A DNA stretch of 63,996 bases, the filler included. It is 5 parts of 5 records of this genome, joined end to end, with 100 filler letters (N's around TTAATTAATTAA, not from the genome) between each part and the next. Parts side by side here need not be neighbours in the genome. Positions count along the whole stretch, not along the records: positions 6,830 to 38,797 come from DRR378314_1447; 4 more parts are not named here. One strand, given 5' to 3'. The notes beneath the pieces were generated by a model. The model had not been told where the DNA came from. It saw only the letters and a program-made list of their open reading frames with translations, and ran no database searches. Positions within the stretch are counted from its first letter, which is position 1. Each line of letters opens with the position of its first letter. A program made the position numbers and the translations under genes. Shown piece by piece: positions 1-63,996 of the stretch.

Positions 1-3000
1 ACCGCTGGGACGACACTGCTGACGTCGGTGGTCGAGCGTCCGATTGTGTGCCTGGAGCTCGGGTCGACGCTGGTGTGGGACGTTTCGGCGAGCTCGAATG
101 CGAGTGAGCTGCACTACCCGGTGTACGACAAGGACTCGCTGTTCAACACGGTCCCGTCGTTTGACTATTCTGACTTTATTGCACTGCGGCAGCTTATGGA
201 GGGGCCGTCGGCGTCGCGGCCACTGGTGTTTGCGCACAACTTTGCGACGGCGGGCACGTATGCGTTCCGCGACGCCGCGGACGCGACGAAGATTATGCTC
301 GTGTCGGTGCAGACGGCGGGGACGTCTTGCCCTGACGACATTCCGATCCAGCCGATGACGCAGCAGAGTCTCGTCGCTGCAGGCGTGTCGCGGACGTCGG
401 ACATTATCCAGACGCCGGACTGGGTGGTGATTGGGTCGCTGATTGCGGCGGTTGTGTGTCTGATTGCGTTCTCGACGGGCGGCAACTACTACTTCAACAA
501 GCAAAAGTGGAAGCCGCGGCGCGCGCGCCCGCCCGTGTTCCGCAAAGAGGGCCGCGTGGACGAGTTTGACGCGTACGCCACCAAAGGCGACACGGTCATG
601 CGGTACGCGAAGCAACCCGAGCCAGACGCGATCGAGGCGGAGCACTTTGGTGCCGACGCCGACGACGTCGAGGCGGCGAAGCGCGCGGCGGCTGCGACCG
701 CGCTGGCGGCGTCGCCGCGCAGCGGCGGCAATGCTGGTGCGGATCTGCTGACGGCGGACGGCCTCGTGCGCGACGACCTGTTTGAGCTGGAGAACTGGTA
801 CGACCTGGACGGGTTCAACGTGCGTACGCTGTACGAGAAGCTCGAGGGGCAGCAGTACCGCGTGTCGCAGGAGCTTGCGCGTCAAGGCGCGGAACTCAAG
901 GTGTTTTACGACAAGGTCAGCAACGACACCCGGCAGCTCAAGGACATGCTGGCGACGAAGCTTGGCATCCGCGAGGGCACTGCCGTGCGGTCGGTGGACG
1001 CGCGGCACTTTGCGCTGTCGTGCCAGAACGAGGCCGGGCGCGAAATTGCGCGGCGCCGCGAGCTCGCCGGGCGCTGCCTGTTTTTGCTGCGCAAGCAGCG
1101 CGATCTGTACGGCGAAGACGACCGCCTTGTCGACAAGTACGAGGGCGCGCAGCGCGACGTGAAGCGCGACATTGTCGCCGTGCTGGACGAAGTGACGAAC
1201 CTCGTCGCGGCGCAGACGATGTGGAGCGACGACGTGAACAAGCAGCTCAAGGCGCTGGTGACGCGGCTCGATTTCAAGGGCACCGAGGCGGCGAACCTGC
1301 GCGAGCGCGAGTGCGAGCGGCGCGGCGTGTGGGCGTCCCTCGGCGGGTCCGTCGAGTTTGGCGCCGAGCTTGCGGACGCGAGCGGGCGCCGCATTGACCG
1401 CCGCACGCTGCTCGAGTCGGCGGGCCGCGTGCGCGAGATCGAAGGCATTGTCGAGCGCGACGAGCTCAGCGGCCTTTTCCTCCCTGTGGCGGGCACGAAG
1501 CTGATCCTGCCCGACGGGCGCCGCGTCGACGCACCTGCGCACGCGTGCATCCACCCGGTGACCGGACGCGTGGTGCCGATCTGGGGCAACGTTGGCGTCG
1601 AGCCGCTTACCGGCCGCGTGCGCTTTGCCGTCCCCAGTGCAAACGAAGATCTTCCCGAGGACCTCGTGCAGTTTGTGCCGATGCCGCTCGCGGAAACGCC
1701 GCCAGCGGCAACGTTCCTCGAGAACCTGTTTTCGCAGCTCGGCGGCGATTCGTTTGCGACGGCGGGTGAGACGATGGTCGACCCGCACACCGGAATGGAC
1801 GTGCCCGTGCTTGGCGCGACGCTCGACCCGATTACGAAGCGTGTGCGCCCGGTTGGCGGCACGATGCGCGATCCGTTTACGCGCCAGCTTGTGCCGATCC
1901 GTCTCGGCGGCTTCATGGAGGACGCCGAGAGTGGCGAGATTGTGCCCATTACCGGCGTGTCGTTTGATCTGGGAAGCGGGCGCGTTGTGCCGGTCGGCGG
2001 TCTGATGAAAGACGCGCGCAGCGGCGGACGCGTGCCGGTGCTCTGCGGCGACACGATGCTGGACGCGTACGCGGGGCGGCCGTCGCGCGTGAGTGGCACG
2101 GTGATCGACGAGGACTCGGGGCGCATCGTGCCGATTGCCGGCGGGCGGTGCGCGCTTGCGGATGCGCTGCAGCTCGAGGCTGACGAGCGCATGGTGCGTG
2201 TCGTGCAAGACGTGCTGCGTATGACGGACACTGCGCGGCGCTCGATGAAGAACGAGCCCGAGAGCGCGGGCGAGGCGCTGGAAGGGCTTGCGCGCACGCT
2301 GCGCGGGAAGCGCGACCAGCTGAGCCGCGCGATGCGCAACTGCGATCGCTACCGCGACATTGCGCGTCTTGCGCGTTCGAAGCAGACGGATCGCGTGCAG
2401 GCGCTCGAGGCGTCTATGCGCGAGGTTGCCGCCAACGGCGGCGTGCGCGGGTCGTACGCGGACCCGCTGCTCGACGAAGACGTGCCGGTGCTGCTGGGCG
2501 CGCCGATGTACGACGCCGTGTCGCGCACCAAGGTGCCGATTGTCAACGTGGCGCCTGAGCCCGAGCCCGGACACGTCCGCCCGCTCGGCGGCGCCGTCGA
2601 GGACCCGCTCAGCGGGAAGACGGTGGCGATCGAGGTCGGCGGGCGCATGAAGGACGGCGTCACCGGGCATATTGTGCCGATCACTGGCGTCGCTGTCGAT
2701 CCGATTACGGGCGCGGTTCTGCCGGTGTCTACGTACGTTGAGCGGACTTCGGCGCAGCTTGCGCGCCTGTATCCCGAGTTGCAGGGCGTGATCGCGTCCC
2801 TGCTCGGGCTCCCTGGGGCCGCGCGACTGACGCCGGGGCTGCTTGCGAAGCTCTCCGGCGCGGCGGGTGGCGCTGGCGGCGGCGGCGGCGCAGGGGTGCT
2901 CCCGGGAATGCTTGGCGCCGTCGTGCGCGCGGGCGACAGCGCTGCGGCCGCATCGTCGCAAAAAGCGGGAGGAGCGCGCCCTGGCGACGACGACCGTCCG

Positions 3001-6000
3001 CCAGAGTCGCGCGTAGAAATCGAGACGCGGCACCAGTCGGAGCGCGAGGAGCTGGATTCCAAGGTCGAGGAAAAGATTGCGCACGACCTCGAGTCGCTGC
3101 GCTTGCACTACTCGATGAACAAGGAAAAGGTGCTGCAAGAAGAGCGCGACCGGCGCGATGCCGAGGTGCCCGAGGAGGGCGCCGACGAGGACCGCGAGCG
3201 GATTTTGCGCGACTTTGAGCGCAATGCGGAGCGGATCGAGCGCGTGATGGACAGCGAGCGCGAGCGCCAAGAGCGCGCGCTGGAGGAGAAACTGCGCGCG
3301 ATGAAGGCGAAGAAGCTCGCGTCACTCTCGAAGCGGCAGGAGATTGAGCGGCGCGCAAACGACTTGCGCTCCGAGCGCGACAGAACGGTGACGGACATGC
3401 GGCGCAAGTTTGAGAGCGAGAAGAAGCAGCTCGAGAAGGAGATTGAACGCGACAACCAGCGCGAGGTGCAGGGCAAGCTCGGAACGTGGCGCGAGGAGAA
3501 CGCGCGCAAGCTGCAGGAGGAGCAGCGGCGCATGATGCAGGAAATCGAGTCGCACAAGATGGCGGCGTCGAGCAAGAAGCTGATGCTGCAGGAGAACAAG
3601 CACAAGGTCGAGCAGCTGGAGAAGGAGCTGCGCGAGCAGGTCGCGCAGCGCGAGCAGGAGCTGCGCGCCCAGCTCGACGCGTCGAAGCACGCGCGCCTCC
3701 AGCAGGCGGAGCGCAAGTTCCAGGGCGACGTGCGGCGGACCGTGGCAAATCAAGACCGCGAGCTCAAGCGCCTGCGCAAGTCTCTCAAGGAGGGCGATGG
3801 CATTGCGGACGCGATCGATGATCTCCAGCTGATGGCTGGCGCGGGCGACGCGGCCGCTGGCGACGATGAGCTTGGCGCGGTCGTTGCGGAGCGCGAGAAC
3901 GAGGTCAAGCACGTGCATGAGCTGAACCGGCAAGATCTCGCGCAGCGTCACGAGCGCGAACAGGAGTCGCTTGTAGAGCAGACGGAGGGCGAGCTTCGCG
4001 ACGAGCTCCTGGCGCTGGCGGACCAGATTTCCGCCAAGGGTGTGCAGGAGAAGGAGCGCCTCAAGGAGCAGATGCGCGAAGAGCTTGGCGAAGACACGAC
4101 TGCGCGCACCGAGAAGGAAAAGGCGGAGATCATGAGCCGGCACACGGCGGAAATGGAGCAGCTGGAGCGCAAGATGGACGTCGAGCGCCAGCGCCAAGAG
4201 GAAGCGATCAAGGCGCGCATTGCCGCGAAGCGAAAACAGCACATTGAGCAGCAGCGCAAGATCCACGAGAACGAGAACCGCCGCCTGGCGCTCGAGCAGA
4301 AAGAGGAGGTGTCCGCGCTGCGCCGGAGCGTGCAGAAAGAGGCCGAGCAGAAGCAGCTCCTCGCCACTGTGCAGCTTGCCGGCACGCTGCGTGCGGCGCC
4401 CGAGGATCTCGCCGACGCTGTCAAGAAGATTCTGAAGCGTCGTCATGACGAGGAGCTGCGCGAGCTCGCGAGCGCGCACGCGGCCGAAAAGGCGCGCAAG
4501 ATTGCCGAGGCCGTGTCGACCTTGGACCGCGAGCGCGAGGCGGCGGAGCGTGTGCGCAACGAGCGGCACGCGCAGGAGATCGCAGACGCCGGAAACGATC
4601 GCAAAAAGGTGCAGGCGCTGGAGCGGCGCCACGCGCAGGAGATCGAGGCCGACGACCGCAAGTGGTCCGGGCGCGTGGCAACTGCGGAGAAGGACGCCGC
4701 CGCAGCAGCGGATCGCGCGCACGCCAACGCGCGCGCAGAGCTTCGCGAGGCGCATATGAAGGAAATCGCCGAGACGTCGGCGCAGCTGGCGCCGCAGCAC
4801 GAGCTCCTGCGCGAGCAGGGCGAGGCTGCTGCGGATGCGGCGCGCGAGCTCGAGGACTTCCGCAAGCAGCTCGTTGAGGAGAACCGCAAACGCGTGCAGG
4901 CAATCAAGGACGAGAAGCTGCGGTTCGAGGCGGAGCAGCGGCGCCAGCTCGAGGCTGCGCTGCTCGAAGTGGACCAGGAGCTCGACGCCGAGCGCGACCG
5001 CGATCTGGCGGCGTCTGGCGCGAAGATCGACCAGCGTATGGAACAGATGAAGCGCCTGCAGCAGCAGGACCTTGAACGCCGGCAGCAAGAGGAGCTCGAG
5101 GATGCGCCCGAGCACCAGCGCGACGAGGTTCTCGAGGAGCATCGTCGCGAGCTGAAGAACCTCGAGGCGGTTACTGCGTCGGAGCGCGAGCGCCAGCGCC
5201 TGCTGCTGGAAGAGCGGCTGAACAAGCGCCGCGAGCGCCGCCGCCAGAAGCGTCTCGCGGAGATGGAGCGCTCGATGATGGATGAGCTCCATAAGCAGGA
5301 GGAGGAGCAGCAAAAGCTCATCGAGAAGGAGAATCGCCGCATGGCCGAGGAGCTCGACTCGAAGAGCAAGCAGATGTCGGACGCCGTGTCGCGCATGCTG
5401 ACGCTAAAGCGCGTCGCGGCAAAGTGGAAGAGCAAGGCCAACATTGTGTCGGAGCCCACCGACCCCGCCGCGCCGCTCGACTCGGCCGCGGCTGGCATGT
5501 CGGGCGCGTCGCCTGCGGTGGGCGGCGGCGCTGGCGGCACTCCGGGGCTGTCGTCGTCTGCGGTCAGCGGCTACCTGAGCAGTATCCACCAGATGCTCCG
5601 TAAACTCGTTGCGGGCGTGCCTGCCAAGACTGTGTTCTCCTTCATTGACGAGCGCGACGCGCGCTGGCAGACCGAGGGCGAGCTGCAGGTCCTGAATCTC
5701 GAGAACATGAGCGGGAAGAAGCTCGAGGTGTACAAAAAGGCGCAGCATCTCGTCGACGGCGTGTGCCGCAAAGTCCGCGCCGCCACTGTCCAGCTGCTGA
5801 TCGCCTCTGAGCTTCCGCACAATGACTACGCGCGCAACGCGTTCCGGAACTCGTACTTTTACGACGACTCGTCGCGCACGCTGTTTGTCCGCAAGGAGCG
5901 CCTTGCGTCCGTCGAGGAGCTTGTTCTAGTGTGCGTGCACGCCATTGGGCACATCAAGTCCGGCTACATGGCCGACGACACCGATCCTGGCTTCTTGCGC

Positions 6001-6519
6001 GCGTTCTTCGCGGGGATTCGCGCCGTTCTCGGCATGCTACTCGAAGGAGGTTCGCTCGATGCGAGCGGGGTCACCGTCCCGGGCGTAAGCTCGTCGTCGT
6101 CGCGCCGCCCACGCCGGCAGCGCTCCGATGGCTCTGGGAGTGATGGCTCGGGCAGTGAGGGCGACGACGGAGTTGTCATCCACCGCCCTGGTGCCCGCCC
6201 GCGGCGCGCGAGCGAGAACAAGCGCGGCAAGGGCGTATCAAGCCTGCTGCGTGGGCGCGGGAGCAAGACGGTAAGCACGAGCGCCGACGCGTCGGGAGGC
6301 GATAGCATTGCCGATGCCGCCGCGGCACCAGCGGGCAGCTCTCTCTCGGTACCTGATCGCCCGAGCGCGCGCCGCTCGCTGCTGGACTCGGACGATTCGG
6401 ACAGTGACGAGAAGGAGAAAGGCGGGCTCTTTGGCCGCCGACGCCGCAGAAAGGCGGCAAAGAAGACGGTCCGCCAGAGCGAGCTGTGGAAGCAGAGACG
6501 CATTGACGAGACTGCGTAA
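1..6519 (+). CDS. Giant single-pass membrane protein, 5'-truncated. Resembles the C-terminal half of the uncharacterised GCC2/GCC3 (ephrin-receptor-like repeat) giant proteins such as zebrafish si:ch211-286b4.4
   Basis: Frame 1 is open from base 1 to TAA at 6517-6519 with no intron. It contains HYPVYDKDSLFNT..FDY..F, then FAHNF..AGTYAF, a TM helix (~421-495), DLDGFNVRTLYEKLEGQ, about 17 DPxTGxxVP(I/V)xG repeats, a long E/K/R/Q coiled coil (~3000-5430) and a C-terminal NAFRNSYFYD...VHAIGHI block. Family assignment is from recalled motifs. Confidence 0.75.
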   Translation, partial: TAGTTLLTSVVERPIVCLELGSTLVWDVSASSNASELHYPVYDKDSLFNTVPSFDYSDFIALRQLMEGPSASRPLVFAHNFATAGTYAFRDAADATKIMLVSVQTAGTSCPDDIPIQPMTQQSLVAAGVSRTSDIIQTPDWVVIGSLIAAVVCLIAFSTGGNYYFNKQKWKPRRARPPVFRKEGRVDEFDAYATKGDTVMRYAKQPEPDAIEAEHFGADADDVEAAKRAAAATALAASPRSGGNAGADLLTADGLVRDDLFELENWYDLDGFNVRTLYEKLEGQQYRVSQELARQGAELKVFYDKVSNDTRQLKDMLATKLGIREGTAVRSVDARHFALSCQNEAGREIARRRELAGRCLFLLRKQRDLYGEDDRLVDKYEGAQRDVKRDIVAVLDEVTNLVAAQTMWSDDVNKQLKALVTRLDFKGTEAANLRERECERRGVWASLGGSVEFGAELADASGRRIDRRTLLESAGRVREIEGIVERDELSGLFLPVAGTKLILPDGRRVDAPAHACIHPVTGRVVPIWGNVGVEPLTGRVRFAVPSANEDLPEDLVQFVPMPLAETPPAATFLENLFSQLGGDSFATAGETMVDPHTGMDVPVLGATLDPITKRVRPVGGTMRDPFTRQLVPIRLGGFMEDAESGEIVPITGVSFDLGSGRVVPVGGLMKDARSGGRVPVLCGDTMLDAYAGRPSRVSGTVIDEDSGRIVPIAGGRCALADALQLEADERMVRVVQDVLRMTDTARRSMKNEPESAGEALEGLARTLRGKRDQLSRAMRNCDRYRDIARLARSKQTDRVQALEASMREVAANGGVRGSYADPLLDEDVPVLLGAPMYDAVSRTKVPIVNVAPEPEPGHVRPLGGAVEDPLSGKTVAIEVGGRMKDGVTGHIVPITGVAVDPITGAVLPVSTYVERTSAQLARLYPELQGVIASLLGLPGAARLTPGLLAKLSGAAGGAGGGGGAGVLPGMLGAVVRAGDSAAAASSQKAGGARPGDDDRPPESRVEIETRHQSEREELDSKVEEKIAHDLESLRLHYSMNKEKVLQEERDRRDAEVPEEGADEDRERILRDFERNAERIERVMDSERERQERALEEKLRAMKAKKLASLSKRQEIERRANDLRSERDRTVTDMRRKFESEKKQLEKEIERDNQREVQGKLGTWREENARKLQEEQRRMMQEIESHKMAASSKKLMLQENKHKVEQLEKELREQVAQREQELRAQLDASKHARLQQAERKFQGDVRRTVANQDRELKRLRKSLKEGDGIADAIDDLQLMAGAGDAAAGDDELGAVVAERENEVKHVHELNRQDLAQRHEREQESLVEQTEGELRDELLALADQISAKGVQEKERLKEQMREELGEDTTARTEKEKAEIMSRHTAEMEQLERKMDVERQRQEEAIKARIAAKRKQHIEQQRKIHENENRRLALEQKEEVSALRRSVQKEAEQKQLLATVQLAGTLRAAPEDLADAVKKILKRRHDEELRELASAHAAEKARKIAEAVSTLDREREAAERVRNERHAQEIADAGNDRKKVQALERRHAQEIEADDRKWSGRVATAEKDAAAAADRAHANARAELREAHMKEIAETSAQLAPQHELLREQGEAAADAARELEDFRKQLVEENRKRVQAIKDEKLRFEAEQRRQLEAALLEVDQELDAERDRDLAASGAKIDQRMEQMKRLQQQDLERRQQEELEDAPEHQRDEVLEEHRRELKNLEAVTASERERQRLLLEERLNKRRERRRQKRLAEMERSMMDELHKQEEEQQKLIEKENRRMAEELDSKSKQMSDAVSRMLTLKRVAAKWKSKANIVSEPTDPAAPLDSAAAGMSGASPAVGGGAGGTPGLSSSAVSGYLSSIHQMLRKLVAGVPAKTVFSFIDERDARWQTEGELQVLNLENMSGKKLEVYKKAQHLVDGVCRKVRAATVQLLIASELPHNDYARNAFRNSYFYDDSSRTLFVRKERLASVEELVLVCVHAIGHIKSGYMADDTDPGFLRAFFAGIRAVLGMLLEGGSLDASGVTVPGVSSSSSRRPRRQRSDGSGSDGSGSEGDDGVVIHRPGARPRRASENKRGKGVSSLLRGRGSKTVSTSADASGGDSIADAAAAPAGSSLSVPDRPSARRSLLDSDDSDSDEKEKGGLFGRRRRRKAAKKTVRQSELWKQRRIDETA

Positions 6520-6729: not shown

Positions 6730-6829
6730 NNNNNNNNNNNNNNNNNNNNNNNNNNNNNNNNNNNNNNNNNNNNTTAATTAATTAANNNNNNNNNNNNNNN
6801 NNNNNNNNNNNNNNNNNNNNNNNNNNNNN
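6730..6829. other. Artificial contig spacer (N44-TTAATTAATTAA-N44)
   Basis: Exactly 100 bp. The palindromic core gives stops in all six frames. Four identical copies occur in the window. Confidence 0.98.
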
Positions 6830-6990
6830 CCCCCCCCAAGCCCCCCGGCGGCGGAACTAGGCCACCGCGCTCGCCGTGCTTCGCTCAGAGATGCGAGGCA
6901 GCGCGTGGTACAACCCGCGGCACGCTGTCCGGACGAGCGAGCTCGCCATACAGAAGCAAACATCCAATGCAGATGGCCTATTGTCGTCGC

Positions 6991-9900
6991 CTAATACGTT
7001 GTTCCCTGATACAGTACTTCTTGCTTTGGAGGCATGCGATCAATATCGTAACCGGATAATGCACACATCACATGCGCCTTGCATCGCGTCCGCTCAACCA
7101 GCGGTTCCAGCTCCGCGTTCGGCACGGAACACCGCCGCTGCATCCCACGAGCCGGCCGCAACGCGGCGACACGCAACGGGCCGCCTCGCCCCCGCGCACG
7201 AAAGACAGCTTACGTGTGCTACACACCTTCTAACGCACGCAACGAACAAGCGGACAAACGGTTCATGCGCGACATCACATATACGAAAACCCGGAGGGAG
7301 ATGCGCACGCGTCTCACGCTGGCGTACCTGATAGTGCTGCGGCACGTGATGAAGGCCGTGAACACCTTCGAGGAGGAGCTGGCCCGTCGCGCCTTTCTCA
7401 AACTGCCGTGCCTCATGGCAGCGCACCATCTCCTCGATGTCAAACGCAGCGCGCATGGGAGCGGGCATGTCACGCCGACAGGATCCGCCGTGGTCCGTTG
7501 TGCAAATCACCGTCCACACCTCGCCGTGCTGGTTCTCGCGCTCGTGCACCGCCGCCATGATCTTTCCTACGTGCGCATCGACGCGATCTATGGCCTCGAT
7601 GTACTCCTTTGTGCTTGGTGAGAATCCAAAATTGTGCCCTGCAATATCCACCTCTTCGAAATATGCAACAATCGCCTCGGGGCAATCATCATCCTCCAGC
7701 AGATCCCGGAGACGGCGAGACACTTCCTTGTCGTCGCTCGGTTCGTGCGCCAAAACGTCCGCATCCATGTTCAGCAGCTTCCCGATCCCGTCCCACGCGT
7801 ACACAGCAGCGGTACGGATACTCGGATCAGCATTCTTGAGAACGCGCAGAAACGTAGGAAGCTGCAGCAACGAGCACGAGATTCACAAGGAATGAAGAGC
7901 GAGGCCTCGCGCGATTCGAGCCGGAGCAAGGTACAAAGTAGGACACCAAGACGACGAAACGAGGAACCGGAAAGGCGGCGGAACTGCGACAACGGAAACG
8001 TTGCGCTGGTGAGGGAAGCCGAAACCAACGAGTGCCACAAAGCATCTTCCATCCCTCAGGCCTCGATTGCAACTACTGATCCAACACGCGCCACTGTGTG
8101 TGCCATAGAAACGTCTTGCACAACCAAACAAAACGAATTCGTGCTGTTTTGTGCGCACTTGGCGCTACCAGAGACCGCCGAGCGCAGCACTGGAACTCTC
8201 CTCCCCACGAACCACGCAGGGCAGCGACCGGACACGTACAAGCGCCGCACGATAACAACCCGTAGCGCAGTGCACCATGCGCAGGTTTTCCACAATCGCT
8301 TCAACCACTATCCATGCAGCATGACACAAGCCGCACCTGCTCCAGCGCATTGTTTCTGAAGTTGAACGTATTATCAAAGACACCGTGCGTGCTGCACTTG
8401 ACGCCAGTGAAAATCGATGTCCACGACGGTGCTGAGACGGGGATGTAATCGCATGTCGCATGAAAACTGGCAGATGAAAGAAAAAAAAACAGTAAAGCGG
8501 AAAAGAAGCAGCCAAGAGGACGATACAAAGGTATGAGAACAGTGTAGGAGAACAGAAAATGAATCACGATTTATCAGGCCAGTATTGGCGCGATGCGGTC
8601 CACGGCAGGGAACCCATCGAAAGCGAAAACGATGAAATTGCAGGAACAGCTTTCGCAGTGCAATGTTGCGCGGCAACGACTCCTCACAGAAACACGCTTC
8701 TGCTACTGCTGATCACGGGCAATTCGTACGCAACTCCCTTTTTGTTGTCGCACAGAGCAAACAATGCGCAGAAAAACTGAGTCAACTATCGATATGGGAC
8801 AGATCGAGCACTAGGGCGCTGGTGCGTCGACAAAGAGAAGCGTCGCCGGCCGAACGGCTTCGGACATGTTCTCTCGTAGACGATTCAAATGCTCTTCGAT
8901 TCCGACAATACTTCCCCAAAGTACTACTGGCGCAGAACAAACGCAGACGCAATTCCTGAAAAGCGCCCCATCGTGCTACGAGGAAGCGCACACCGAGTGA
9001 TGCAGCCCCAGATGCTTCCCGAAAAGCTCGGCCATTGCATACGATACCGAAACGTGCCGCCTTGGCGAGAATGGATGCACATAACGAGAAGCATCATGTT
9101 TTGTACCTGTAAGCACCTTCTGTCACAAATTTCTTCAGGTTCGGAGAGCTGGCGAGAAGGAGTGCGTCTGGCCGCATCCCGTCCAGCGCAAGCAGCAACA
9201 CTCTCCGATTTCCGACTTTCCGCTGCCTAGCTGGCGCTATCGTTTCCGATCGGATGGTATCAGCCGGTCCAAATCCTTCCACAGAACCACTTCCAAGCAA
9301 ACTTTCGCCTCTGCATTAAAGTGCGACGTAGAAAAGTCACAGCGGCGGTAGGATCAAGGGGGAGGGAAAGATGTTTTGCCCAACAGCGACAACGCGCGCC
9401 TCCATCGGGGTCGCTTCACGACGTACACGTGAAAAATCAAACCCCGTTACCGAGGGAGGTGCGGCATCTACCGCCTGCAATAATAAAATATCGCAGTATT
9501 CGCTTCCAAGAACCACAGGCACAAAAGGAAAAAAGCACGTCTCGCCACGACGAATGCAGTGCAGTGCAACGCAAACGAACACGGAAGAGCACAACTGTAG
9601 TGGGAAAAATGCCCGCTCTCCCAATACATACGCATAATTCCACGGGCAGGCCTCCGGAACGAAACACAAACCCAGTTGTGAGGCACCATTAGGCTAGAAG
9701 CACAAGACATACTCGATGCATGGGCCCAAAGTTGCCGATCCGCTTCCGCAACGAGCGATGCGAGAACCAAGTCACCAACCCGCGGCGCGTGGGCAGCCAA
9801 TCGCCTTCGCAATGGAACAAAAACCGCACCGGAGCGACATGCGCGAGGGTGTGGCAACATACCCTTCGCCCTGTACAGCAGGCCTCAACATATTCCCAAA

Positions 9901-11317
9901 CATGTGCGCAAGATTCACGGAGTCCTCTTGCCCGCTGTTTTCAATGTGCCCCTGCAGCTCGCGCGAGAGGCGCTGCAGCTGTGGCGTCTCCCGCACAAAG
10001 GGAGCATCAGAGACGAAATCGAGAGGCGAGAGCTCCTTGAAACCGGCTGTCAAACGCGCACCGCAGAACACCCGGATTGTAAAGAAAGTTAGTAATGAGG
10101 AACGACTCGGTGCGAAGAGGGAGAAAACAAGAAAAACGCGGACAGAAGACGGCGCATGCGCAGTTGGGCAACCGCCGCCGCAGGGTCCGCCGACGGCCGC
10201 CTGCGCGGCGAGAAGCGCCTCCGGAGGGCCCGCGAGCACCGCGCAGCCGACGAGGAGTACCGCAAGCGGCGCCGAGGGGCACTGGGCGAGCGCCCTCTCC
10301 ACTTCAAGGTGTGGTAAGCACAACTATGCATCTGGTAGACATCGCAGAAAAGCGTATCTTCCGGCGCCACTTTCCCTCCTCGGCGTTTGATAGGAGCCCA
10401 GGCAGCCGCCGCGCGGCGCTTCGTTGACCGCCACGCCTATCCTCGCGCACACGCGCGCACAGTGCACCTGCCAGGCGCGTGCGCCGATGGATGGAGCGAA
10501 AAGAACTTCCGCGCAGAGCAATGCTATGCGAGAAAATGATCAGAGCCTGCCATATAGAAAAAAGCGATATGCTGCATGCTCCACTCGTACAGCACGAGCG
10601 AAGTCCAGCAAAGCACGGACACGGGAGTAGCAGCACGCACTTCGCTACGACAGCGCTGCAGCTGCACTGCACACCACGTGTCGCTCGCTCGCAGCCGCTT
10701 CTGAGTGCCCGCCCCCGCCGCAAGAGCGCGTAGCTCCCGAAGACGCGTGACCTCTCACTTCCTCCACCGCAGTCGCCGTCTCAATCGCATAAGGAACAAG
10801 CTTCATACATCTATTCCAATGTCTTTGTCGTGTACTGATCGTAACATGCACGCCCAGCGGCAGCAAAGACGCTTGCGGCGCCCAACCACGCTGGAGCACC
10901 CGCGGTGCGCCCTCGTGCTGCAGCAAAGAGCGTGCGGAACGTACGCAGACCCGCAACTTTCTTGTTGAACTTCTTGACGATTTTCCTGACCGCCGTGAAA
11001 TTCAGCACCACAAACCACCGCAAGTTGCTAACGAGGTGGCCTGCTTTTTGCCAAGCGATCCTGTCGCCGTGCTGCTCGGGCCCTCCGACTGCCTGCACCT
11101 CGTCGACAAACTGGACGCACGCTGCAAGCTCCTCGTGAAAGAAGCTGCCCGCCCGATCCACTTCTGCGCGCAGCGCGTCGGCAAACGCGGCGACGTGCTG
11201 CTCGCCGCCGCCAGCTTCGACAGCAGCCTTGATAAGCTTCTTCAATTGCTTATAGGAGACATACTTCGTTGCCCATTCGGGAATACGATCACGTGTTAGG
11301 CGCTTGGCAAACTTCAT
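6991..11317 (-). CDS. SPX domain fused to an alkaline-phosphatase-superfamily (type I phosphodiesterase/nucleotide pyrophosphatase) domain
   Basis: Exons 11317-10945, 10046-9863, 9310-9107, 8466-8337 and 7861-7328 are all GT-AG with phases 1,2,2,0 and give 475 aa. A tentative last exon is 7077-6991. SPX motifs: MKFAKRL..IPEW..KYVSYKQLKKLIK and LNFTAVRKIVKKFNKK. Phosphatase motifs: LLALDGMRPD, SAPSWTSIFTG, EVDIAGH, TTDHGG, GVHG. Confidence 0.85.
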
Positions 11318-11909
11318 TGCAGCGGTGGAAACGCAACGCGCAGGAAGGCTGGCGCCTGAGGGCTGGCGGGAAGCGGAGAGCCGGCGGTCTCCAGCGGCGA
11401 AATCGTGCCTGCCGCGCGCGCGCGTGGCGGCGCGGCGGCCCGCGTGGTGGCAGACCCCCCCTCTCTGTGCGGGCCTCTGCGCGCGCCTGAGGGCGCCGGG
11501 CCCGCTGTGCGCCCCGAGGCTGGTCAGGCTTGCCGACTCCTCCTTCGGCGCGCCCACTGTGTCATTGCATCGCGTCTCGAATTGCCTGGTATGAATAAAC
11601 TGAACACTGTCTTGAGCCATAGTGCGAAAGCGAGTGCAAGCGCGTCACCCCGCCGTGGCAAGCTCTTGCGGCGGGCGGAGGGAACGCCGGAGGCCGCGCG
11701 AACCGGCAGTGCCGAGGCCTACGGCACGCGAAGAAGCACAGGACGCAGGCCCCGAGTTAAAAGTGCGAGCGTGATACAGTGCCTCGCCCATTACGACTCC
11801 CCTATAGTACATATATTGCCTTGCCTTTACAATACGTGCATAAGAGCATAGATCGTTGACGTCCGCGGCTGCACAGGATTGCGATTTCTACCAATTCCGC
11901 GCGTCTGCT

Positions 11910-14900
11910 TCACTGCGAGGCGGCGGGCCTTCCGTTGGGAGGAGGGCTGGTCGCCGCGCCCGACGTAGCACTGCGCGAACCGCTACGCATCTCGTGCACG
12001 CGCTTCTCTGCAACTTCCCGGAACCTCTCACGATAATCCGGAAAATCATGCAGCACTTTGTCGAAATCGTTCTTTGACAGTATGAACAGGTCGCAGTACG
12101 TCAGCGATCGCACGGTCGCTGTCCGCGGTGTTTGCATGATCAGCGCAACCTCGCCAAAAAAGGAGCCTTCGCGGAGAACTGTGTGAACCTCCTCCCGCCC
12201 GGACGGCCGTTCGCGAACAACCTCCACCGATCCTGTCGGGCACGCAAGTGAGAAACTGGTAAGATAGTGATTCATTCCTCTGGTTGAGCAGATCGTGCGA
12301 CCGTTGCAAAGTGCAGCAATCTGCGGCCAGCGGTTGTGCGAAGTGCTTCAGCACCCCTTAGGTTAAGCAGCGCAGACAATGGCAAAGCAAGATTGATGTG
12401 CGACACAACAGAAACCGACCTCGATTGATAAAATACACGCGAGTTCCAGGCTCACCGCGACGAAAGATGATTTCTCCAGGTGAAATAACAAAAGGACGTA
12501 GAGCAAGTACAATGCGGTTCAACACGTTTGCGCCGCAGTCGCTGCAATTGGCAAAGCGCAGAGAGGAACGTGAGTACGATTGCTCAGTGCTGCGCAGTAG
12601 CTGCTGCGCACATCACCATCTCGCGCTCGCGTGAGGTATTGCTTTCCCAGAAATGAACAGCAGCTTTGGTTTTTCAAATAGTACGACAAGTTGGATATAA
12701 CAGTCAGCTGGGCACTTTGTCCGCTGTACAAATACGCACCGGAAGATGGGCACCTTGGACAGGATTTCGCGATTTGTCAGCAGAGCAACTTCGAGTCGCA
12801 AGTATGTTGGTAGATCATCCAGGATGTGGCGTTCATCCATCCCACGGTGGCGAGTCCAAAGATAGTCGTAGTAATTGCGCACCCGTTGTTGGAGAGCAGT
12901 CGGTACCTCACGGTATCGCATGTACTGATTTACTATATCAAGTTTTTGCCTGCAATTTGCAGGCGCAGAGAAAAGTGCGATCCAGACGCGTCGGCATCGT
13001 GATCTTTGCGCGCGAACGCGCGAGCCCCGCCAGCCCGACGCGGACCATTCCCCCGAATAGTATCTTGGTTCAATATCACATCCGTTGTAATGTTACTGAA
13101 GTACTAAAACCGCACAGGGCGTCGCGCAGCCATGATGAGGTACCTGCGTGCGATTTCTCGTGTTTGTTGTGCGCGCATGTGTGCACGGGCGCCCCTTCCG
13201 CTCCCGTTCCCCGCACGAGCGCCTGCTGCAACACTGCACGTACCTGTACGCCGAGGAGGCGATTTCGAGCTGACTGACCAGCGTGGCCATATTACCGATA
13301 ATCAACGCATAAATGAAGTGCCCAGTCAGCATGACGCCAATAGCAAAGACTGTTTCCACAGTCGTGCTCGCTTGAATATCACCGTATCCCACTGTCAGCA
13401 TCGTTCCGAGTGACCTGGAGACCGCGCGCGTTGCCCGCAGAAGAACGAGAGGCACGACGATGCACCGTCAGAATAATGACATTCTTTTATCAAAAAAAAA
13501 GGTGAATCAAGTGAGACAGAAAGCAAGGAAAGAGTTTACAGTTAGGCACTCTCGTATTGCGTTTGCTTCTAATTTTGAGGTAAGCAGTGCATTGCAAGTC
13601 CCCGCAACGATCACCTTGGAGAATGGCGCGCCATTTTTGGCGCATCTGGGGAGTGCGGAGCTGGCCTATGTGAACGAACCAGTACAGCGCTCGAGCGTAG
13701 AACCGCCCGATGTCATCATCCAGCAGGCGACACACTCCTTGGTCGTTGCAAAACGCTGGTATCGCTTCATTACGAGACCCAGTCCACCTTGAAGTAGGAA
13801 GCAATGTACAAGAACGAAGATCGAATTCATCAACGACAAAAGAAAAACGAAAAGAAAATACACAGATCTGGCAACGGATATATTAGCGGCGAGCCCGTTG
13901 CCGCGCAATCTGCGTGTCCGCGTGTCCGGTCGCGGCGCTACCCAAGCCCCAAGCAGCGGACGTCGCCAGCACACTGGAGCTGAATCTACAAGATACATGC
14001 ACGTCTTGCTTCATACATGCATGTCCGCAACGGAGAAATTCAGTGCTTTCCGCGTATGCGCTAAAAGGCGCTGTGGTCCAGAATCCACCTGCGCGAAACG
14101 CAAGCACGCTACTCGTACCCATCTTCTGGAAACCGCTCCAGGTATGCGATATAGAACCAGCCACACGCCACCCAGTGACCAAAGAGTATTATGTACACAA
14201 GAAGTCGACCAAGGCGAATCACGTTCGAGTTCACATTTCGGATAGATTTCTCCCACTGAGCAAACAAGGCGAGTGCAGCCTTGATCCGTAGAACCCGAAA
14301 GAGCTGCATCGGGTAAGCGCGGCAGCGAGCGTACAGAAGGGAGAGAGGAAAACATGCGCGCCCATACGGCTTGAGAAAGTTGAGCACGGTTCGTTCTCCG
14401 CTATGCACCATAGTGGTAAGAAGAAGTGGTGGCATAGATTTCAGACGTCATTCACACCAAAGTCACAATGCGGCGAGCAGCAATGCGCGGATACAAACTG
14501 CGTATGCGGAGCTACTGAAAGGGAAACACTGCTGCAGACAGACGACTTCAACGTTTACGCTGTCATGGTACATCGCCATCAAATAGAATGGAAAATAATT
14601 GTGTTTCTAGCTCTATCCAAAGGTAGACATGCGAAATGTACGCCACCCCAATATTTTGGTGCACACTTTCAGCAGGACAATACAACCAAAAATCCGCGCG
14701 CTTCCACGCGCTGCATCCATTTTCTCAACACCATCAGGTAGTACGTTGCGCTTTCTGAGCAGCGCGAAATCTTATGTTCAGGGCCAACGCTGTTGCAACA
14801 CCCCTTCCTCCTCTGCCGCCCTCATACTTAACGCGCGATTTCGTCACGGAAGAGATGTCCAGCATCATGTAGCCTGATGACTATCCACGACAGCTAGTCA

Positions 14901-18953: not shown

Positions 18954-21315
18954 ATGACAAGCATTCAAGCAAATGATCTTGAAGTTCCGCTGGTCGGAGG
19001 TGGTGTTTGGGATGCGGCAGTGGACGTGCAGCAACTGTACATAACCGCGAAAGGAGGACCTGAAGCGCGCGCCGGGTGCGTACGGTGTCTATTCCCTGTC
19101 CCCACTTCCCGTCGGCACACTATCATTATTGTTACTACGCGCGACCTGCTTCATACGCGGCAGTTTTCATGAAATCTCTGTGTTCCGTAGTTGTCAGCGA
19201 ACGCCATGAGGACTGCAGCGCGCTTGCAGGGGTGCTTTCTTGCGAGCAGTCCTCGCTCGAAGCTAGCGTGAGGTGAGAGCATTCCCTGTCGAGCCGCGAG
19301 TGTCCTCTTTCTTCTTTTGCTACTTTGCGCACCAGCGCGAGTTTGCATACGCCTGCCGAAAAAAGTAAGAGCTGGTCGCCGCGCATGGTCAATACCAATC
19401 TCCGGGTTTTATTTTTCATCACTCGCGTACCTATTCGTGCTTCATTGCGTCCAGTCCTTTTCTGAAACGATGTGCCTGTGCCGGGTCCTGGCCAGGCACC
19501 GATGGTTCACGAAAGTCTGAGCACGCAGGCAGCACCACACCAAAACTCGTAGTAGACGCTCCGGCCTCGGAAGCATCGACGCTTTACTCCTGCGCTAATT
19601 AATATCGGTGTTTGCATGCCGTTCAATCGTTTACAAACTTGGAATCAGGGCTACGTTTATCGAAGCAGCGCTGAGTCTGGCGAAAATTGCCGTTGGGACA
19701 GGCGTGCTGGCGCTTCCGTACGCATTTGCGAACGGAGGGTTCATCGGCGGTACCGTGTGTGTGTTTGCAGTTGGTCTACTAAATCTCGCGGCGTGCGTCA
19801 TACTCCTGCATACTGCGGTTCGCAACCCTCCGGAGCTTGCTGGCACATCAGGAAGTCTGTACACTGCCATGGCGTACCTCTGTTTCGGAAAAATCGGCGG
19901 TCGTGCTGTGGACGCCGTTTTGCACGTCACGCTCATGGGCGCCGGCTGCGTCTTCCTCATCGTACGTTTCGCGCATTCTTCCCGCTATCTTTCCACCCCA
20001 CATATGGTAATCTTGACGACAAGCGACCGAACGGCGTTGATTTCGCATCAATGTATTGTTCCTTTTCATTTTTCTTTTGATTCGCAATGGGCGGGGCACT
20101 GACAGCAGTGATGAAACGGCGGCTCTTTGTGCATTTGTTCCCTTGGTACTTGCAGTTTGTTGTCGGACAGCTGGGCGAACTCAAGCACGGCGTTCCGCGC
20201 GTTGCATGGCTAGCGCTCAGTGCTCTCGTCGTCGTTCCGCTCCTGGCGACAAGAAGCCTCCGACGGCTCGCTTTTACATCAGCCGCTGGATTGGTTGCTG
20301 TATTTGCTGGATTTATCGCGGCGTACGCTGAAGGCCCCCCGACAAGCGATGCAGTCACCGGGATGCAGGCGTTTGGCTCTGGTTTTTCCGAATGCTACGG
20401 CGTTGTTGCATACTCGTTCGGCATTCCCATGTTCATCTTTAGCATACGCGATGGAATGGCTAAACCAGAACGAGCTAGCCTTGCTGCTTCCGTTTCAATA
20501 ACACTGATCTGTATAATATACACTGTCATTGGTATTTGTGGATACTACATCTTCGGTCCCAAAGTAAAGGATGACGTCATCTCGGAACTCCGCGGCGGCG
20601 CGGTCGGGCAAACCATCCGCGCTTGTATGGTACGATGCCACTCAGACCCATCGAGTGTCCTCTCTCTGAGCTTACTTCCTGATTTGCATCCAATGCTTGT
20701 GTTGTATTAAAAAAACGGTGATTCATAAACTTTGCAGCTTGAGGCGAGTCTGCGCGAGTTGTATCAGCGCCGCTGGGCCGCATTCCCTCTAGGGCGCACG
20801 CTGTGCGATGATGCTTGCATACCAAGTGCCTAGCCATCGCCTCTGTGATGCCACGTTAGAGAAGCGAACAAAGCCTGTCATACTTCAAGTACGCTGTGAT
20901 CAGTCTAACGGTGGGGGGCGCGTATACTGCGGTCCTCGTTTTCGTGTAGGTTGTTGTGCAGCTCTTCGGATACCCGCTTGTGCTGAAGCCCACGGGAGAC
21001 TCTCTGGCTTCGCTGATGGCAAAGTCTCGCGAAAGAGCGCTCGCCTCTGGACGCGCACGTCTGTCTGCCGCTCTACTTGTCGTCGCCGTCAACGCGATTG
21101 TCGCGCTTGTGTATCCGAATTTCGGAATCGTGGTGGCGCTGATCGGATCGTTCTCGCTGTCGCTGCTCACCTTTGTGCTACCTGCCCTGTACGGCCTGTT
21201 TCCCCCGAATCCCGAGAGATCCGCTCGCCGTCGATTTTTCTTGTGGGCATTCGTGGTGTTTGGAGTAGGGACTATGATTTTTACAACGTATCGCACAATT
21301 GCCTCTGTTGCATAG
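18954..21315 (+). CDS. Amino acid transporter, AAAP/Aa_trans family (SLC36/SLC38/AVT-like)
   Basis: Exons 18954-19075, 19649-19961, 20156-20629, 20950-21315, phases 2,0,0. Motifs: KIAVGTGVLALPYAFANGG, RSLRRLAFTS, GICGYYIFG, PNFGIVVALIGS..LTFVLPAL, plus many hydrophobic helices. Confidence 0.92.
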
Positions 21316-28386: not shown

Positions 28387-29095
28387 ATGGGTCGACAATG
28401 ATCGATAAGATAGTCACAGCTCCAAGGAAACACACACACCTTTCCAAGTCAGCGCCCCACCCCGCCCAAACAAAAGGGCACAGGAAAAGGAACAGTGTGG
28501 CGGGAGGAACACGGGCAAAGTCACTCTCGTGCCACTCCTTCAGCAACGCGCCGCACTACCAGAAAAGCACCACCCATAACAGCAGGATACTACAAGTGAA
28601 CAACGTCAGTGCACAGCAAGTATATCCTTAGCTTATACTTCTGTCTTCTGAGAGCAGTAAACTTCACAGCGACAGCCGCAACAGCAAAAGGGCAGTGCGC
28701 AGTACGGCAGGGCGAGAAGTCCTGTTCGCAGTGCGCCGCTGCAGTTGCGCCCACGGCTCTCAAGTAAAATGTGTTGCAGCTTAAGGGGGGGGTAAAAACA
28801 TAGACCCTATATTGTAAACTACCCGCTCTCCCGCGCTCGTGCGCTCCTGCTCGGCGAGCAGCTCCTCGCGCGCTCCGGCAGAGCGGCGCAACACCTGCGC
28901 GCTCCCGCTGCTTCTTGCGTGACCCTTGCCACGCAGCTTGCGCGTTTGCCTCTCCACAGGATCGCCATAGCATTGGACTGGAGTTGGGCACTCCTCATTT
29001 ACCATACACCACAAAGTTCGATTTCTTTTCTCATTTCCTCCATCTACGCACCGCATTCAAATCTACAATCAAACAGAAAGCAGCAATTCAGAACC

Positions 29096-38797: not shown

Positions 38798-38897
38798 NNN
38801 NNNNNNNNNNNNNNNNNNNNNNNNNNNNNNNNNNNNNNNNNTTAATTAATTAANNNNNNNNNNNNNNNNNNNNNNNNNNNNNNNNNNNNNNNNNNNN
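38798..38897. other. Artificial contig spacer
   Basis: N44-TTAATTAATTAA-N44. Confidence 0.98.
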
Positions 38898-44127: not shown

Positions 44128-44227
44128 NNNNNNNNNNNNNNNNNNNNNNNNNNNNNNNNNNNNNNNNNNNNTTAATTAATTAANNNNNNNNNNNNNNNNN
44201 NNNNNNNNNNNNNNNNNNNNNNNNNNN
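44128..44227. other. Artificial contig spacer
   Basis: N44-TTAATTAATTAA-N44. Confidence 0.98.
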
Positions 44228-52555: not shown

Positions 52556-52655
52556 NNNNNNNNNNNNNNNNNNNNNNNNNNNNNNNNNNNNNNNNNNNNT
52601 TAATTAATTAANNNNNNNNNNNNNNNNNNNNNNNNNNNNNNNNNNNNNNNNNNNN
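52556..52655. other. Artificial contig spacer
   Basis: N44-TTAATTAATTAA-N44. Confidence 0.98.
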
Positions 52656-63964: not shown

Positions 63965-63996
63965 CTGGTAAAATTTATATCATTGCAGCTTATCGC

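What the first reader, a model, noticed from the sequence alone, without database searches (positions are those of the whole stretch)
6991..11317. SPX sensor fused to an alkaline-phosphatase/nucleotide-pyrophosphatase domain: candidate new phosphate-regulated hydrolase
Seen: five exons join through canonical GT-AG introns (10944-10047, 9862-9311, 9106-8467, 8336-7862) with matching phases into a 475-aa frame. The first phosphatase exon has an in-frame TAA just upstream and no ATG before its DGMRPD motif, so it needs an upstream exon, and the second SPX exon supplies the exact phase. The SPX keeps the InsP-binding residues (YxxYKxLKK and RKIxKKFxK). Known: SPX domains sense inositol pyrophosphates, and the familiar fusions are EXS, MFS, RING, VTC, Pho87/90/91 transporters and ANK/GDPD (Pho81, Gde1). 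I do not know of a characterised SPX fusion to an AlkP-superfamily domain. Inference: a cytosolic phosphoester hydrolase with no signal peptide, switched by phosphate status, that either scavenges Pi or feeds back on PP-InsP, polyP or nucleotides.
Basis: partly seen in the sequence, partly recalled or inferred. Interest (0 to 1): 0.88.

Follow-up and report, generated by a model that had tools for sequence, protein, structure and literature searches.

The report
Spliced SPX–phosphodiesterase fusion gene, 3' end missing
A protist gene really does splice a phosphate-sensing SPX domain directly onto an intact NPP-type phosphodiesterase domain, but the gene is cut off by an assembly break, and uncharacterised relatives with an extra RING finger exist in other protists.

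Summary
On the minus strand, five exons (11317-10945, 10046-9863, 9310-9107, 8466-8337, 7861-7328) join in phase into 475 codons. Intron-free contigs of run X1 carry all four junctions exactly. One 973-nt contig runs from the 5' UTR through the SPX exons into the phosphatase exons. Pfam finds SPX in exon 1 and PF01663 in exons 4 and 5. The PP-InsP-binding residues, the nucleophile Ser265 and all metal ligands are present.

Two corrections:
- The 475 aa are not the whole protein. The transcript splices on at 7328 into sequence absent from the window. The contig ends at a 100-base linker at 6730-6829, and 6991-7327 is not in the mRNA.
- The architecture is not unique. Uncharacterised protist proteins combine SPX, RING and NPP, some with an added GDPD or EEP domain. 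The window's NPP domain groups with them. The window gene has no RING.

Six literature searches found no description of an SPX-NPP fusion. The most likely function is a cytosolic, PP-InsP-regulated phosphodiesterase/pyrophosphatase; this is inferred, not shown. I rate it a new variant of a known kind, of moderate to high interest.

The parts
11318..11399 (-). 5' UTR as far as the transcript-like contig reaches; it holds no ATG before 11317
   Evidence: X1 record 3 starts at 11399; sequence read
10945..11317 (-). Exon 1: start codon and SPX helices 1-4 (aa 1-124). Holds Y22/K26 and the lysine cluster VRKIVKKFNKK at 110-120
   Evidence: Pfam SPX 2e-16; residues; covered by X1 record 3
10047..10944 (-). 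Intron 1, 898 nt, GT..AG
   Evidence: joint 10046>10945, skips 898
9863..10046 (-). Exon 2 (aa 125-185): C-terminal part of SPX and linker, no Cys, no RING
9311..9862 (-). Intron 2, 552 nt, GT..AG. This is the SPX-to-phosphatase junction. No RING-like frame lies inside it
   Evidence: (joint 9310>9863, side 184 nt)
9107..9310 (-). Exon 3 (aa 186-253): linker and start of the NPP domain, LDGMRPD with metal ligand D229
8467..9106 (-). Intron 3, 640 nt, GT..AG
8337..8466 (-). Exon 4 (aa 254-297): nucleophile stretch SAPSW (S265), H281 and N286
   Evidence: Pfam PF01663 1.1e-6; alignment to the PafA nucleophile stretch
7862..8336 (-). Intron 4, 475 nt, GT..AG. A second X1 contig (7894-8366, depth 8.2 against 17.8) retains it
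7328..7861 (-). Exon 5 (aa 298-475): DxxGH (D369, H373), DHGG (D420, H421) and the last His (H465). Ends in phase 0 at HYQ
   Evidence: Pfam PF01663 5.1e-12; 2gsn alignment
6830..7327 (-). Start of intron 5 (GT at 7327-7326), cut off by the contig end. Not in the mature transcript
   Evidence: No X1 cover; X1 record 1 has a 3907-nt loose end before 7328; its next 30 nt are absent from the window
6730..6829 (.). Artificial contig join (44 N + TTAATTAATTAA + 44 N), one of four in the window. The rest of the gene lies beyond it and is not in the window
   Evidence: tblastn of five relatives finds nothing below 7253

Best explanation
This is a real, expressed protist gene under purifying selection. 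Its product begins with a complete SPX inositol-pyrophosphate sensor. After a linker of about 40 residues with no RING finger, it continues directly into a catalytically intact NPP-type two-metal phosphodiesterase/pyrophosphatase domain of the alkaline-phosphatase superfamily, with Ser265 as nucleophile. The window holds only the first 475 codons, and the gene continues beyond an assembly join.

It is a RING-less member of an uncharacterised protist family of SPX-RING-NPP proteins.

Most likely mechanism (inferred): a soluble cytosolic hydrolase of phosphodiester or pyrophosphate bonds in nucleotides or glycerophospho-/choline-type diesters. PP-InsP binding to the basic SPX surface sets its activity, so that organic-phosphate breakdown follows the cell's phosphate status.

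Shown here: the gene structure, the splicing, the domain identities, the conserved residues and the existence of relatives. Inferred: localisation, substrate, and the direction and existence of SPX control.
For: - Splicing: all four junctions appear in intron-free contigs at 100% identity. One contig bridges SPX to NPP. Phases and GT-AG sites fit.
- Domains: SPX 2e-16; PF01663 1.1e-6 and 5.1e-12, all above Pfam's cut-offs. Exon 5 aligns to Xac NPP 2gsn across DxxGH..DHG (E 1.4e-5).
- Catalytic residues: every position that is nearly invariant in 60 relatives is present in the window protein (D229, S265, W269, H281, D369, H373, D420, H421, H465). These correspond to D236, S273, W277, H289, D399, H403, D450, H451 and H486 of P0010.
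- Fold of the closest full-length relative: the P0010 model has pLDDT above 90 for most of the NPP domain. Its best Foldseek matches are Xac NPP (3.6e-13) and ENPP5, ENPP7, ENPP6 and ENPP4.
- Selection: against a DNA contig of a relative about 97.5% identical (X2), the listed differences between 7433 and 8914 are 5 in 559 exon bases and 35 in 923 intron bases. All 6 indels lie in introns. Of the 5 exon changes, 4 are synonymous and 1 is N374S.
- Family: P0129 is SPX+RING+PF01663. P0165 is SPX+RING+PF01663+Exo_endo_phos. P0084/P0152 are SPX+RING+PF01663+GDPD. P0010 and P0168 are SPX-like+RING+PF01663.
- Tree: the window's NPP domain falls in an 18-row clade (SH-aLRT 93) that holds all of these.
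- Next exon: the 30 nt after 7328 read on in frame as TFVLARGSLV. This matches the position of VFVIGACASH after HRQ in P0010.
Against: - No biochemical or binding data exist.
- The C-terminal part of the protein is unknown. It could hold further domains that change the picture.
- The library type of X1 is not on record. That it is RNA is deduced only from the missing introns.
- The clades holding the window protein have moderate support only: SH-aLRT 93 and 86, none at 95 or more, from a quick search without bootstraps.
- In 3 of the 5 related fused types (P0129, P0165/P0006, P0084) the NPP site is degenerate, so the domain does not always act as an enzyme in this family.
- The nucleophile is Ser, not the Thr of canonical NPPs.
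- No named subfamily matched in NCBIfam, so substrate class cannot be read from homology.
Confidence: 0.6

Rival explanations
1. The window holds only the N-terminal third to half of a much larger multi-domain enzyme. Its main catalytic output lies in a missing C-terminal domain, for instance GDPD or an endonuclease/exonuclease/phosphatase domain as in relatives. The NPP domain would then be accessory.
For: - The X1 contig runs 3907 nt beyond exon 5.
- Relatives P0084/P0152 (1248-1249 aa) add GDPD, and P0165 (1190 aa) adds Exo_endo_phos.
- The bacterial-type P0001 is NPP+GDPD.
- The best Atlas look-alike of P0010 is a RING+GDPD cluster of 81 members, at score 0.81, which is a lead only.
Against: - In the relatives with an extra catalytic domain the NPP site is degenerate. 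In the window gene it is intact, as in P0010/P0168, which end about 80-100 residues after the NPP domain.
- By path length on the tree the window protein is nearest to P0009, P0005, P0170/P0171 and P0010, not to P0084 or P0165.
- An unstranded contig may also run into a long 3' UTR or an overlapping convergent transcript.
Confidence: 0.2
2. The NPP domain is a ligand-binding or scaffold module rather than an enzyme. The gene would be a decayed derivative of an SPX-RING-NPP ubiquitin ligase that has lost its RING.
For: - All other fused relatives found carry a RING between SPX and NPP.
- Three of the five types have lost metal ligands.
- The RING block is missing in the window protein around the exon 2/3 junction.
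Against: - All seven catalytic positions and N286 are kept.
- Exon changes against the X2 relative are 4 of 5 synonymous.
- No RING remnant lies in any intron frame: 0 regex hits in 15 frames.
Confidence: 0.12
3. Artefact: two neighbouring genes (a small SPX gene and a phosphatase gene) are joined by a chimeric assembly of reads or by read-through.
For: X1 is kept as assembled contigs, not reads. Its library type is a guess.
Against: - The junction 9863|9310 is an exact GT-AG splice with 184 nt on the shorter side, in a contig of even depth: 17.7, against 17.8 for the downstream contig.
- Exon 3 has an upstream in-frame stop and no start codon of its own.
- The phases fit.
- The same domain order occurs in independent relatives.
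Confidence: 0.03

Closest known systems
Uncharacterised protist SPX-RING-NPP proteins: P0010 (611 aa), P0168 (624 aa), P0129 (531 aa), the Euglena mutabilis transcript fragment P0006, and the longer P0165 (+EEP) and P0084/P0152 (+GDPD, named 'glycerophosphodiester phosphodiesterase' by one source)
   Same: - N-terminal SPX followed by the same NPP clade, with Ser nucleophile and Trp four residues later.
- They share an insertion between DHGG and the last His.
- P0010 and P0168 also keep all catalytic residues.
   Different: - The window protein has no RING finger between SPX and NPP.
- Identity is only 34.7% to P0010 over exon 5.
- Its C-terminus is unknown.
- None of these relatives has a tested function.
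Bacterial and animal NPPs: Xanthomonas NPP (2gsn, 7n1s) and ENPP1-7
   Same: Pfam PF01663, two-metal site motifs D / DxxGH / DHG / H, and Asn after HG. A relative's model matches these folds best.
   Different: - These are secreted or ecto-enzymes with a Thr nucleophile.
- The window protein has Ser265, no signal peptide and an N-terminal SPX.
- Sequence identity is low (13-21% for the P0010 model).
PafA-type alkaline phosphatase (5tj3)
   Same: The nucleophile stretch of exon 4 aligns with PafA's VPTVTAIGHTSIFTG..HGI. Our Ser lies at the place of the Thr that is Ser in entry 5too.
   Different: The match is weak (E 0.45) and local. Nothing shows monoesterase specificity.
Yeast Gde1 and Pho81 (SPX-ankyrin-GDPD), recalled from knowledge, not tested here
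   Same: An SPX sensor at the N-terminus of a phosphodiester-hydrolase-type domain. Some relatives of the window gene also carry GDPD.
   Different: No ankyrin and no GDPD in the part of the gene that is in the window. The hydrolase fold is different: AlkP superfamily against a TIM-barrel GDPD.
Plant NLA / SPX-RING ubiquitin ligases (class named in PMC8717665 and PMC8233357, passages read)
   Same: SPX at the N-terminus. The window gene's relatives have SPX followed by a C3HC4 RING, as NLA does.
   Different: The window gene has no RING, and NLA has no NPP domain.

Membership tests
SPX domain (PF03105) | Profile match above the curated threshold, starting at residue 1 | tested here: met
   61.4 bits against a cut-off of 27.8, E 2e-16, residues 1-33 matched to profile 1-33 plus a second stretch
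SPX domain (PF03105) | Basic PP-InsP-binding surface: Tyr and Lys on helix 2, lysine cluster on helix 4. The residue roles are recalled from the Vtc4 SPX literature | tested here: met
   Y22, K26 and VRKIVKKFNKK at 110-120 are present and aligned with the same positions in P0129, P0165, P0010 and P0168. Binding itself was not tested
NPP / type I phosphodiesterase (PF01663), AlkP superfamily | Profile match above the curated threshold | tested here: met
   Exon 4: 29.0 bits; exon 5: 46.5 bits; cut-off 23. PDB 2gsn 1.4e-5
NPP / type I phosphodiesterase (PF01663), AlkP superfamily | Six metal ligands (D; D..H; D-H; H) and the Asn after HG | tested here: met
   D229, D369, H373, D420, H421, H465 and N286
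NPP / type I phosphodiesterase (PF01663), AlkP superfamily | Thr nucleophile, as in canonical NPPs | tested here: not met
   Ser265 stands at that position. Ser is nearly invariant in the 60-sequence clade alignment (S273 of P0010). This makes it an AP-like nucleophile in an NPP-like scaffold
NPP / type I phosphodiesterase (PF01663), AlkP superfamily | Complete alpha/beta core fold | tested here: inconclusive
   The last strand and helix lie in the missing exon(s). Only a relative (P0010) could be modelled, and it matches Xac NPP at 3.6e-13
SPX-RING (NLA-type) and the SPX-RING-NPP relatives | C3HC4 RING finger after SPX | tested here: not met
   No Pfam RING on any exon. A gap lies at the RING block in the alignment. 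0 RING-pattern hits in 15 intron and downstream frames. The missing C-terminus could not be tested
SPX-RING-NPP relatives | NPP domain of the same clade | tested here: met
   An 18-row clade with SH-aLRT 93 holds the window protein and all fused relatives; the sub-clade with P0010/P0168 has SH-aLRT 86. Support is moderate
Gde1/Pho81-type SPX-ANK-GDPD | Ankyrin repeats and a GDPD domain | tested here: inconclusive
   Neither was found in exons 1-5, and tblastn with the GDPD-bearing P0084 and P0001 found neither anywhere in the window. The missing 3' part is unknown

The most novel reading that the evidence does not exclude
This is the first example of the eukaryotic phosphate sensor wired directly to an alkaline-phosphatase-superfamily enzyme. 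In this reading, a cytosolic NPP-type hydrolase has its Ser265-dependent cleavage of nucleotide, glycerophosphodiester or even PP-InsP/polyP substrates switched by InsP7/InsP8 binding to its own SPX domain. It would represent a wider protist family, SPX-(RING)-NPP with or without GDPD/EEP, that couples phosphate status to organic-phosphate or phospholipid head-group turnover.
Probability: 0.35. Interest if true: 0.75.

Novelty: new variant of a known kind. Interest (0 to 1): 0.6.

Why it matters
SPX domains are the common eukaryotic receptor for inositol pyrophosphates. Their known outputs are transporters, polyphosphate synthesis, transcription-factor sequestration, a RING ligase, a CDK inhibitor and GDPD enzymes.

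A direct fusion to an intact AlkP-superfamily hydrolase would add a new enzymatic output. It would also give a simple one-polypeptide system in which to test how SPX gates catalysis.

The family pattern seen here suggests modular evolution of phosphate-scavenging enzymes in protists. The NPP site is intact where NPP is the only hydrolase domain. It is degenerate where GDPD or EEP is appended. No paper found here describes this.

It also shows that the assembly cuts this gene, so any annotation made from this scaffold will be truncated.

Tried and rejected
- Missing 3' exons. The 30-nt loose end of X1 and its two halves have 0 matches in the window. tblastn of P0010, P0084, P0129, P0006 and P0001 hits only 7253-11317. 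A metagenome scan with exon 5 matched 40 patterns, none confirmed. The rest of the gene could not be recovered.
- RNA runs. No RNA holder is listed on record. X1 is 'RNA?' by guess only.
- Close orthologues. The word-index search with exon 5, longer proteins only, gave 1 hit among 761 candidates. The exhaustive search gave 1395 hits at E<=1e-3, 303 at <=1e-10 and none at <=1e-30, with the best at 1.5e-22.
- Profile search with A1. It returned only 11 proteins among 8000 scored candidates and did not return three of its own four input rows, so it is no census.
- Taxon. No whole genome is held. The SHPRH-like helicase in the window has its best hits at 29-39% identity to scattered eukaryotes (Mesostigma, a barnacle, fungi, with Eimeria and Neospora lower down).
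- Named subfamilies. NCBIfam gave only far sub-threshold superfamily hits.
There is no verdict.
- Atlas. The best look-alike of P0010 scores 0.81 and is a lead only.
- A RING remnant in the introns was considered and rejected.
- Supplements were closed. Supplemental Table S1 of PMC8717665 and Supplementary Data 2 of PMC8233357 list SPX genes of algae and MMETSP and could contain SPX-NPP proteins that I could not see.
Full report
**1. What is in the sequence**

The feature lies on the minus strand.
- They join with matching phases. Counted to 7328 they give 1425 nt, which is 475 codons.
- All four introns (898, 552, 640 and 475 nt) begin with GT and end with AG, with good donor and acceptor contexts.
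- The genomic frame of the first phosphatase exon has a TAA two codons before the acceptor.
- There is no Met before the DGM of LDGMRPD, so that exon cannot start a protein on its own.

**2. Independent evidence for splicing**

One public run (X1) holds contigs that are 100% identical to the window and lack the introns.
- The joints are exactly 10046>10945, 9310>9863, 8466>9107 and 7861>8337.
- A single 973-nt contig runs from 11399 (82 nt upstream of the ATG, with no other ATG in between) through exons 1-4. It therefore bridges the SPX/phosphatase junction with 184 nt on the shorter side.
- A second contig of the same depth (17.8 against 17.7) covers exon 5 and the last 30 nt of exon 4.
- The library type of X1 is not on record. 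I take it to be derived from RNA only because exact GT-AG introns are missing from it.
- A third contig at about half the depth (8.2) retains intron 4.

A DNA contig from a relative about 97.5% identical (X2) is colinear from 7433 to beyond 11700.
- In the part of the difference list that was printed (7433-8914) there are 5 differences in 559 exon bases and 35 in 923 intron bases. The list is cut at 40 of 105 rows.
- All 6 indels lie in introns.
- Of the 5 exon differences, 4 are synonymous and one is N374S.
- The gene is therefore under purifying selection.

**3. The 3' end is not what the finding's coordinates say**

- No X1 contig covers 6850-7327.
- The exon-5 contig leaves the window at 7328 (HYQ, phase 0, GT at 7327-7326) and goes on for 3907 nt.
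- Its first 30 nt continue the frame as TFVLARGSLV. They are absent from the window, whole or in halves, with mismatches allowed.
- tblastn with five relatives finds nothing below 7253.
- The window is built from contigs joined by 100-base linkers of 44 N, TTAATTAATTAA and 44 N. There are four, and one lies at 6730-6829.
- So the gene is cut by a contig end. The 475 aa are an N-terminal part, and 6830-7327 is the start of intron 5.
- In the closest full-length relative (P0010), the residues that follow the equivalent HRQ are VFVIGACASH plus about 40 more residues of the NPP fold. At least the last strand and helix of the domain are therefore missing.
- Whether all 3.9 kb belong to this mRNA cannot be told from an unstranded contig.

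**4. Domain identities**

Pfam results:
- SPX on exon 1: E 2e-16, 61.4 bits, cut-off 27.8.
- PF01663 on exon 4: 1.1e-6.
- PF01663 on exon 5: 5.1e-12.
- Exons 2 and 3 match no family.

SPX residues (roles recalled from the Vtc4 SPX literature):
- The helix-2 pair Y22/K26 is present.
- The helix-4 lysine cluster VRKIVKKFNKK lies at 110-120.

NPP catalytic positions:
- Exon 5 aligns with Xanthomonas NPP (2gsn, E 1.4e-5) across DxxGH and DHG.
- Exon 3 aligns weakly with the IDGLRAD start of the same enzyme.
- Exon 4 aligns weakly with the nucleophile stretch of PafA. Our Ser265 lies at the nucleophile position.
- In a 60-sequence alignment of relatives the nearly invariant positions are the first Asp, Ser, Trp, His, DxxGH, DHGG and the last His.
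- The window protein has all of them: D229, S265, W269, H281, D369, H373, D420, H421 and H465, plus N286.

Solubility: there is no hydrophobic segment (highest Kyte-Doolittle 19-mer mean 1.21). SPX occupies the N-terminus, so a signal peptide is excluded and a soluble, probably cytosolic protein is inferred.

**5. Relatives**

No close orthologue exists in the protein collections.
- The exhaustive search with exon 5 gave 1395 hits at E<=1e-3 but none at <=1e-30. The best was 1.5e-22, with identities of 28-48%.
- Most hits are stand-alone or otherwise fused bacterial-type NPP proteins.

Fused forms among the 150 best hits:
- 3 carry an SPX N-terminus: P0010, P0084 and P0129.
- 4 carry a RING pattern: those three plus P0006.

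Pfam and cluster look-ups define these types:
- SPX-RING-NPP: P0129 (531 aa); P0010 (611 aa) and P0168 (624 aa), which have a short, divergent SPX.
- SPX-RING-NPP-Exo_endo_phos: P0165 (1190 aa). Its cluster includes the Euglena mutabilis transcript fragment P0006.
- SPX-RING-NPP-GDPD: P0084/P0152 (1248-1249 aa). The cluster has 14 members, and one source names it glycerophosphodiester phosphodiesterase.

In a quick maximum-likelihood tree of 69 NPP domains:
- All fused forms and the window protein fall in one 18-row clade (SH-aLRT 93).
- The window protein sits in an 8-row sub-clade (SH-aLRT 86) with P0010/P0168.
- No branch holding it reaches 95, so this is moderate support for a common origin of the fusion.

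Catalytic sites across the family:
- The window protein, P0010 and P0168 keep the full catalytic set.
- P0129, P0165 and P0006 have lost the first Asp and DxxGH, and have DY in place of DH.
- P0084 has lost the first Asp, DH and the last His.
- So where a second hydrolase domain is appended, or in P0129, the NPP domain looks inactive.

The window protein is the only one without the RING.
- The RING block falls in a gap around the exon 2/3 junction.
- No RING-like frame is left in any intron.

**6. Fold**

The spliced window protein could not be handed to the structure tools, so the closest full-length relative, P0010, was modelled.
- Mean pLDDT is 75. The NPP part (228-530) is mostly above 90, and the SPX helices are at 67-90.
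- Foldseek puts Xac NPP first (3.6e-13). Next come ENPP5, ENPP7 (alkaline sphingomyelinase), ENPP6 (choline glycerophosphodiesterase) and ENPP4, then PhnA, SPAP and sulfatases.
- This fixes the fold class but not the substrate.
- NCBIfam has no matching named subfamily.

**7. How it most likely works**

Shown: one mRNA encodes SPX, a linker, and an intact NPP-type site.

Inferred from established knowledge of the AlkP superfamily:
- Ser265 would be activated by a two-metal centre.
- I assign D229, D420 and H421 to one metal and D369, H373 and H465 to the other, by analogy with Xac NPP.
- Ser265 attacks a phosphodiester or pyrophosphate, and the covalent intermediate is then hydrolysed.

Inferred from SPX biology:
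- InsP7/InsP8 bind the basic surface and change how SPX contacts the catalytic domain.
- For a scavenging enzyme the expected sign is inhibition at high PP-InsP and activity at low phosphate. This sign is a guess.

On substrates, structural neighbours include nucleotide and choline-diester enzymes, and relatives carry GDPD or EEP. These point to nucleotide or phospholipid head-group diesters. PP-InsP or polyP as substrates are not excluded.

I put 0.6 on the overall statement: about 0.95 on the gene structure and about 0.4-0.5 on regulated hydrolase function. The rivals are:
- a larger enzyme whose main domain is missing (0.2);
- a non-catalytic remnant of an SPX-RING-NPP ligase (0.12);
- an artefact (0.03).

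**8. Comparison with what is in print**

- The search for 'SPX' with 'PF01663' gave 0 papers.
- 'SPX domain' with 'type I phosphodiesterase' gave 0 papers.
- 'SPX domain' with 'ENPP' gave 3 reviews on mammalian mineralisation, seen as listing only.
- The broader searches listed nothing on such a fusion.
- PMC8717665 (passages read) lists the SPX fusions found in algae and basal plants: VTC, EIN3, CitMHS, Na_sulph_symp, RING-BET, S6PP_C, Kelch, EXS-rve and Sugar_tr. NPP is not among them.
- PMC8233357 (passages read) names the four plant classes. It notes that some MMETSP SPX genes may carry further domains, without listing them in the text.
- PMC10468533 (passages) and PMC8092007 (one passage) add nothing on this.
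- The supplements of these papers were closed and may list such proteins.

**9. Verdict**

- The fusion is real and undescribed in the literature searched.
- It belongs to an existing but uncharacterised protist family, of which it is the RING-less form with an intact active site.
- The gene model is incomplete.

I rate it a new variant of a known kind (SPX-controlled effector proteins), with interest 0.6.

The taxon could not be fixed.

Noticed in passing
window 6730-6829, 38798-38897, 44128-44227, 52556-52655: There are four identical 100-base joins (44 N + TTAATTAATTAA + 44 N). The window is a chain of contigs, so gene order across these points need not be real, and genes at contig ends are truncated.
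   Followed up: partly
window 7894-8366 (-): An X1 contig at about half the depth of the spliced form (8.2 against 17.8) retains intron 4. This is either unspliced precursor or a retained-intron isoform that would truncate the protein after the nucleophile exon.
   Followed up: no
window 11913-12347 (-) and further exons up to about 12612: The upstream neighbour on the same strand encodes a cyclic-nucleotide-binding domain (PF00027, 1.1e-15). Its last exon ends about 500 nt before the 5' end of the SPX-NPP transcript contig.
   Followed up: partly
window 23332-28413 (-): A single 1694-codon open frame encodes an SHPRH-type SNF2 helicase with a RING finger (PF00176 6.9e-55, SHPRH helical domain, RING, Helicase_C). 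Its best database hits reach only 29-39% identity, so the organism has no close annotated kin.
   Followed up: partly
window 1-6516 (+): A 2172-codon open frame runs off the window start. It is rich in coiled-coil-like E/R/K/Q stretches and in repeated 'VP(I/V)xG' units, and it has no Pfam family at E<=1e-4. It converges on the contig join next to the SPX-NPP gene.
   Followed up: no
window 20081-20707 (+): An exon-sized frame matches the transmembrane amino-acid transporter family (PF01490, 1.9e-20).
   Followed up: no
proteins P0129, P0165/P0006, P0084 (relatives, not in the window): In SPX-RING-NPP relatives that carry an extra GDPD or EEP domain, and in P0129, the NPP metal ligands are replaced. 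In this family the NPP domain seems to have become a pseudoenzyme more than once.
   Followed up: partly
window 55170-63974 (-): A 2934-codon open frame, rich in Ala, Ser and Arg, was not examined further.
   Followed up: no
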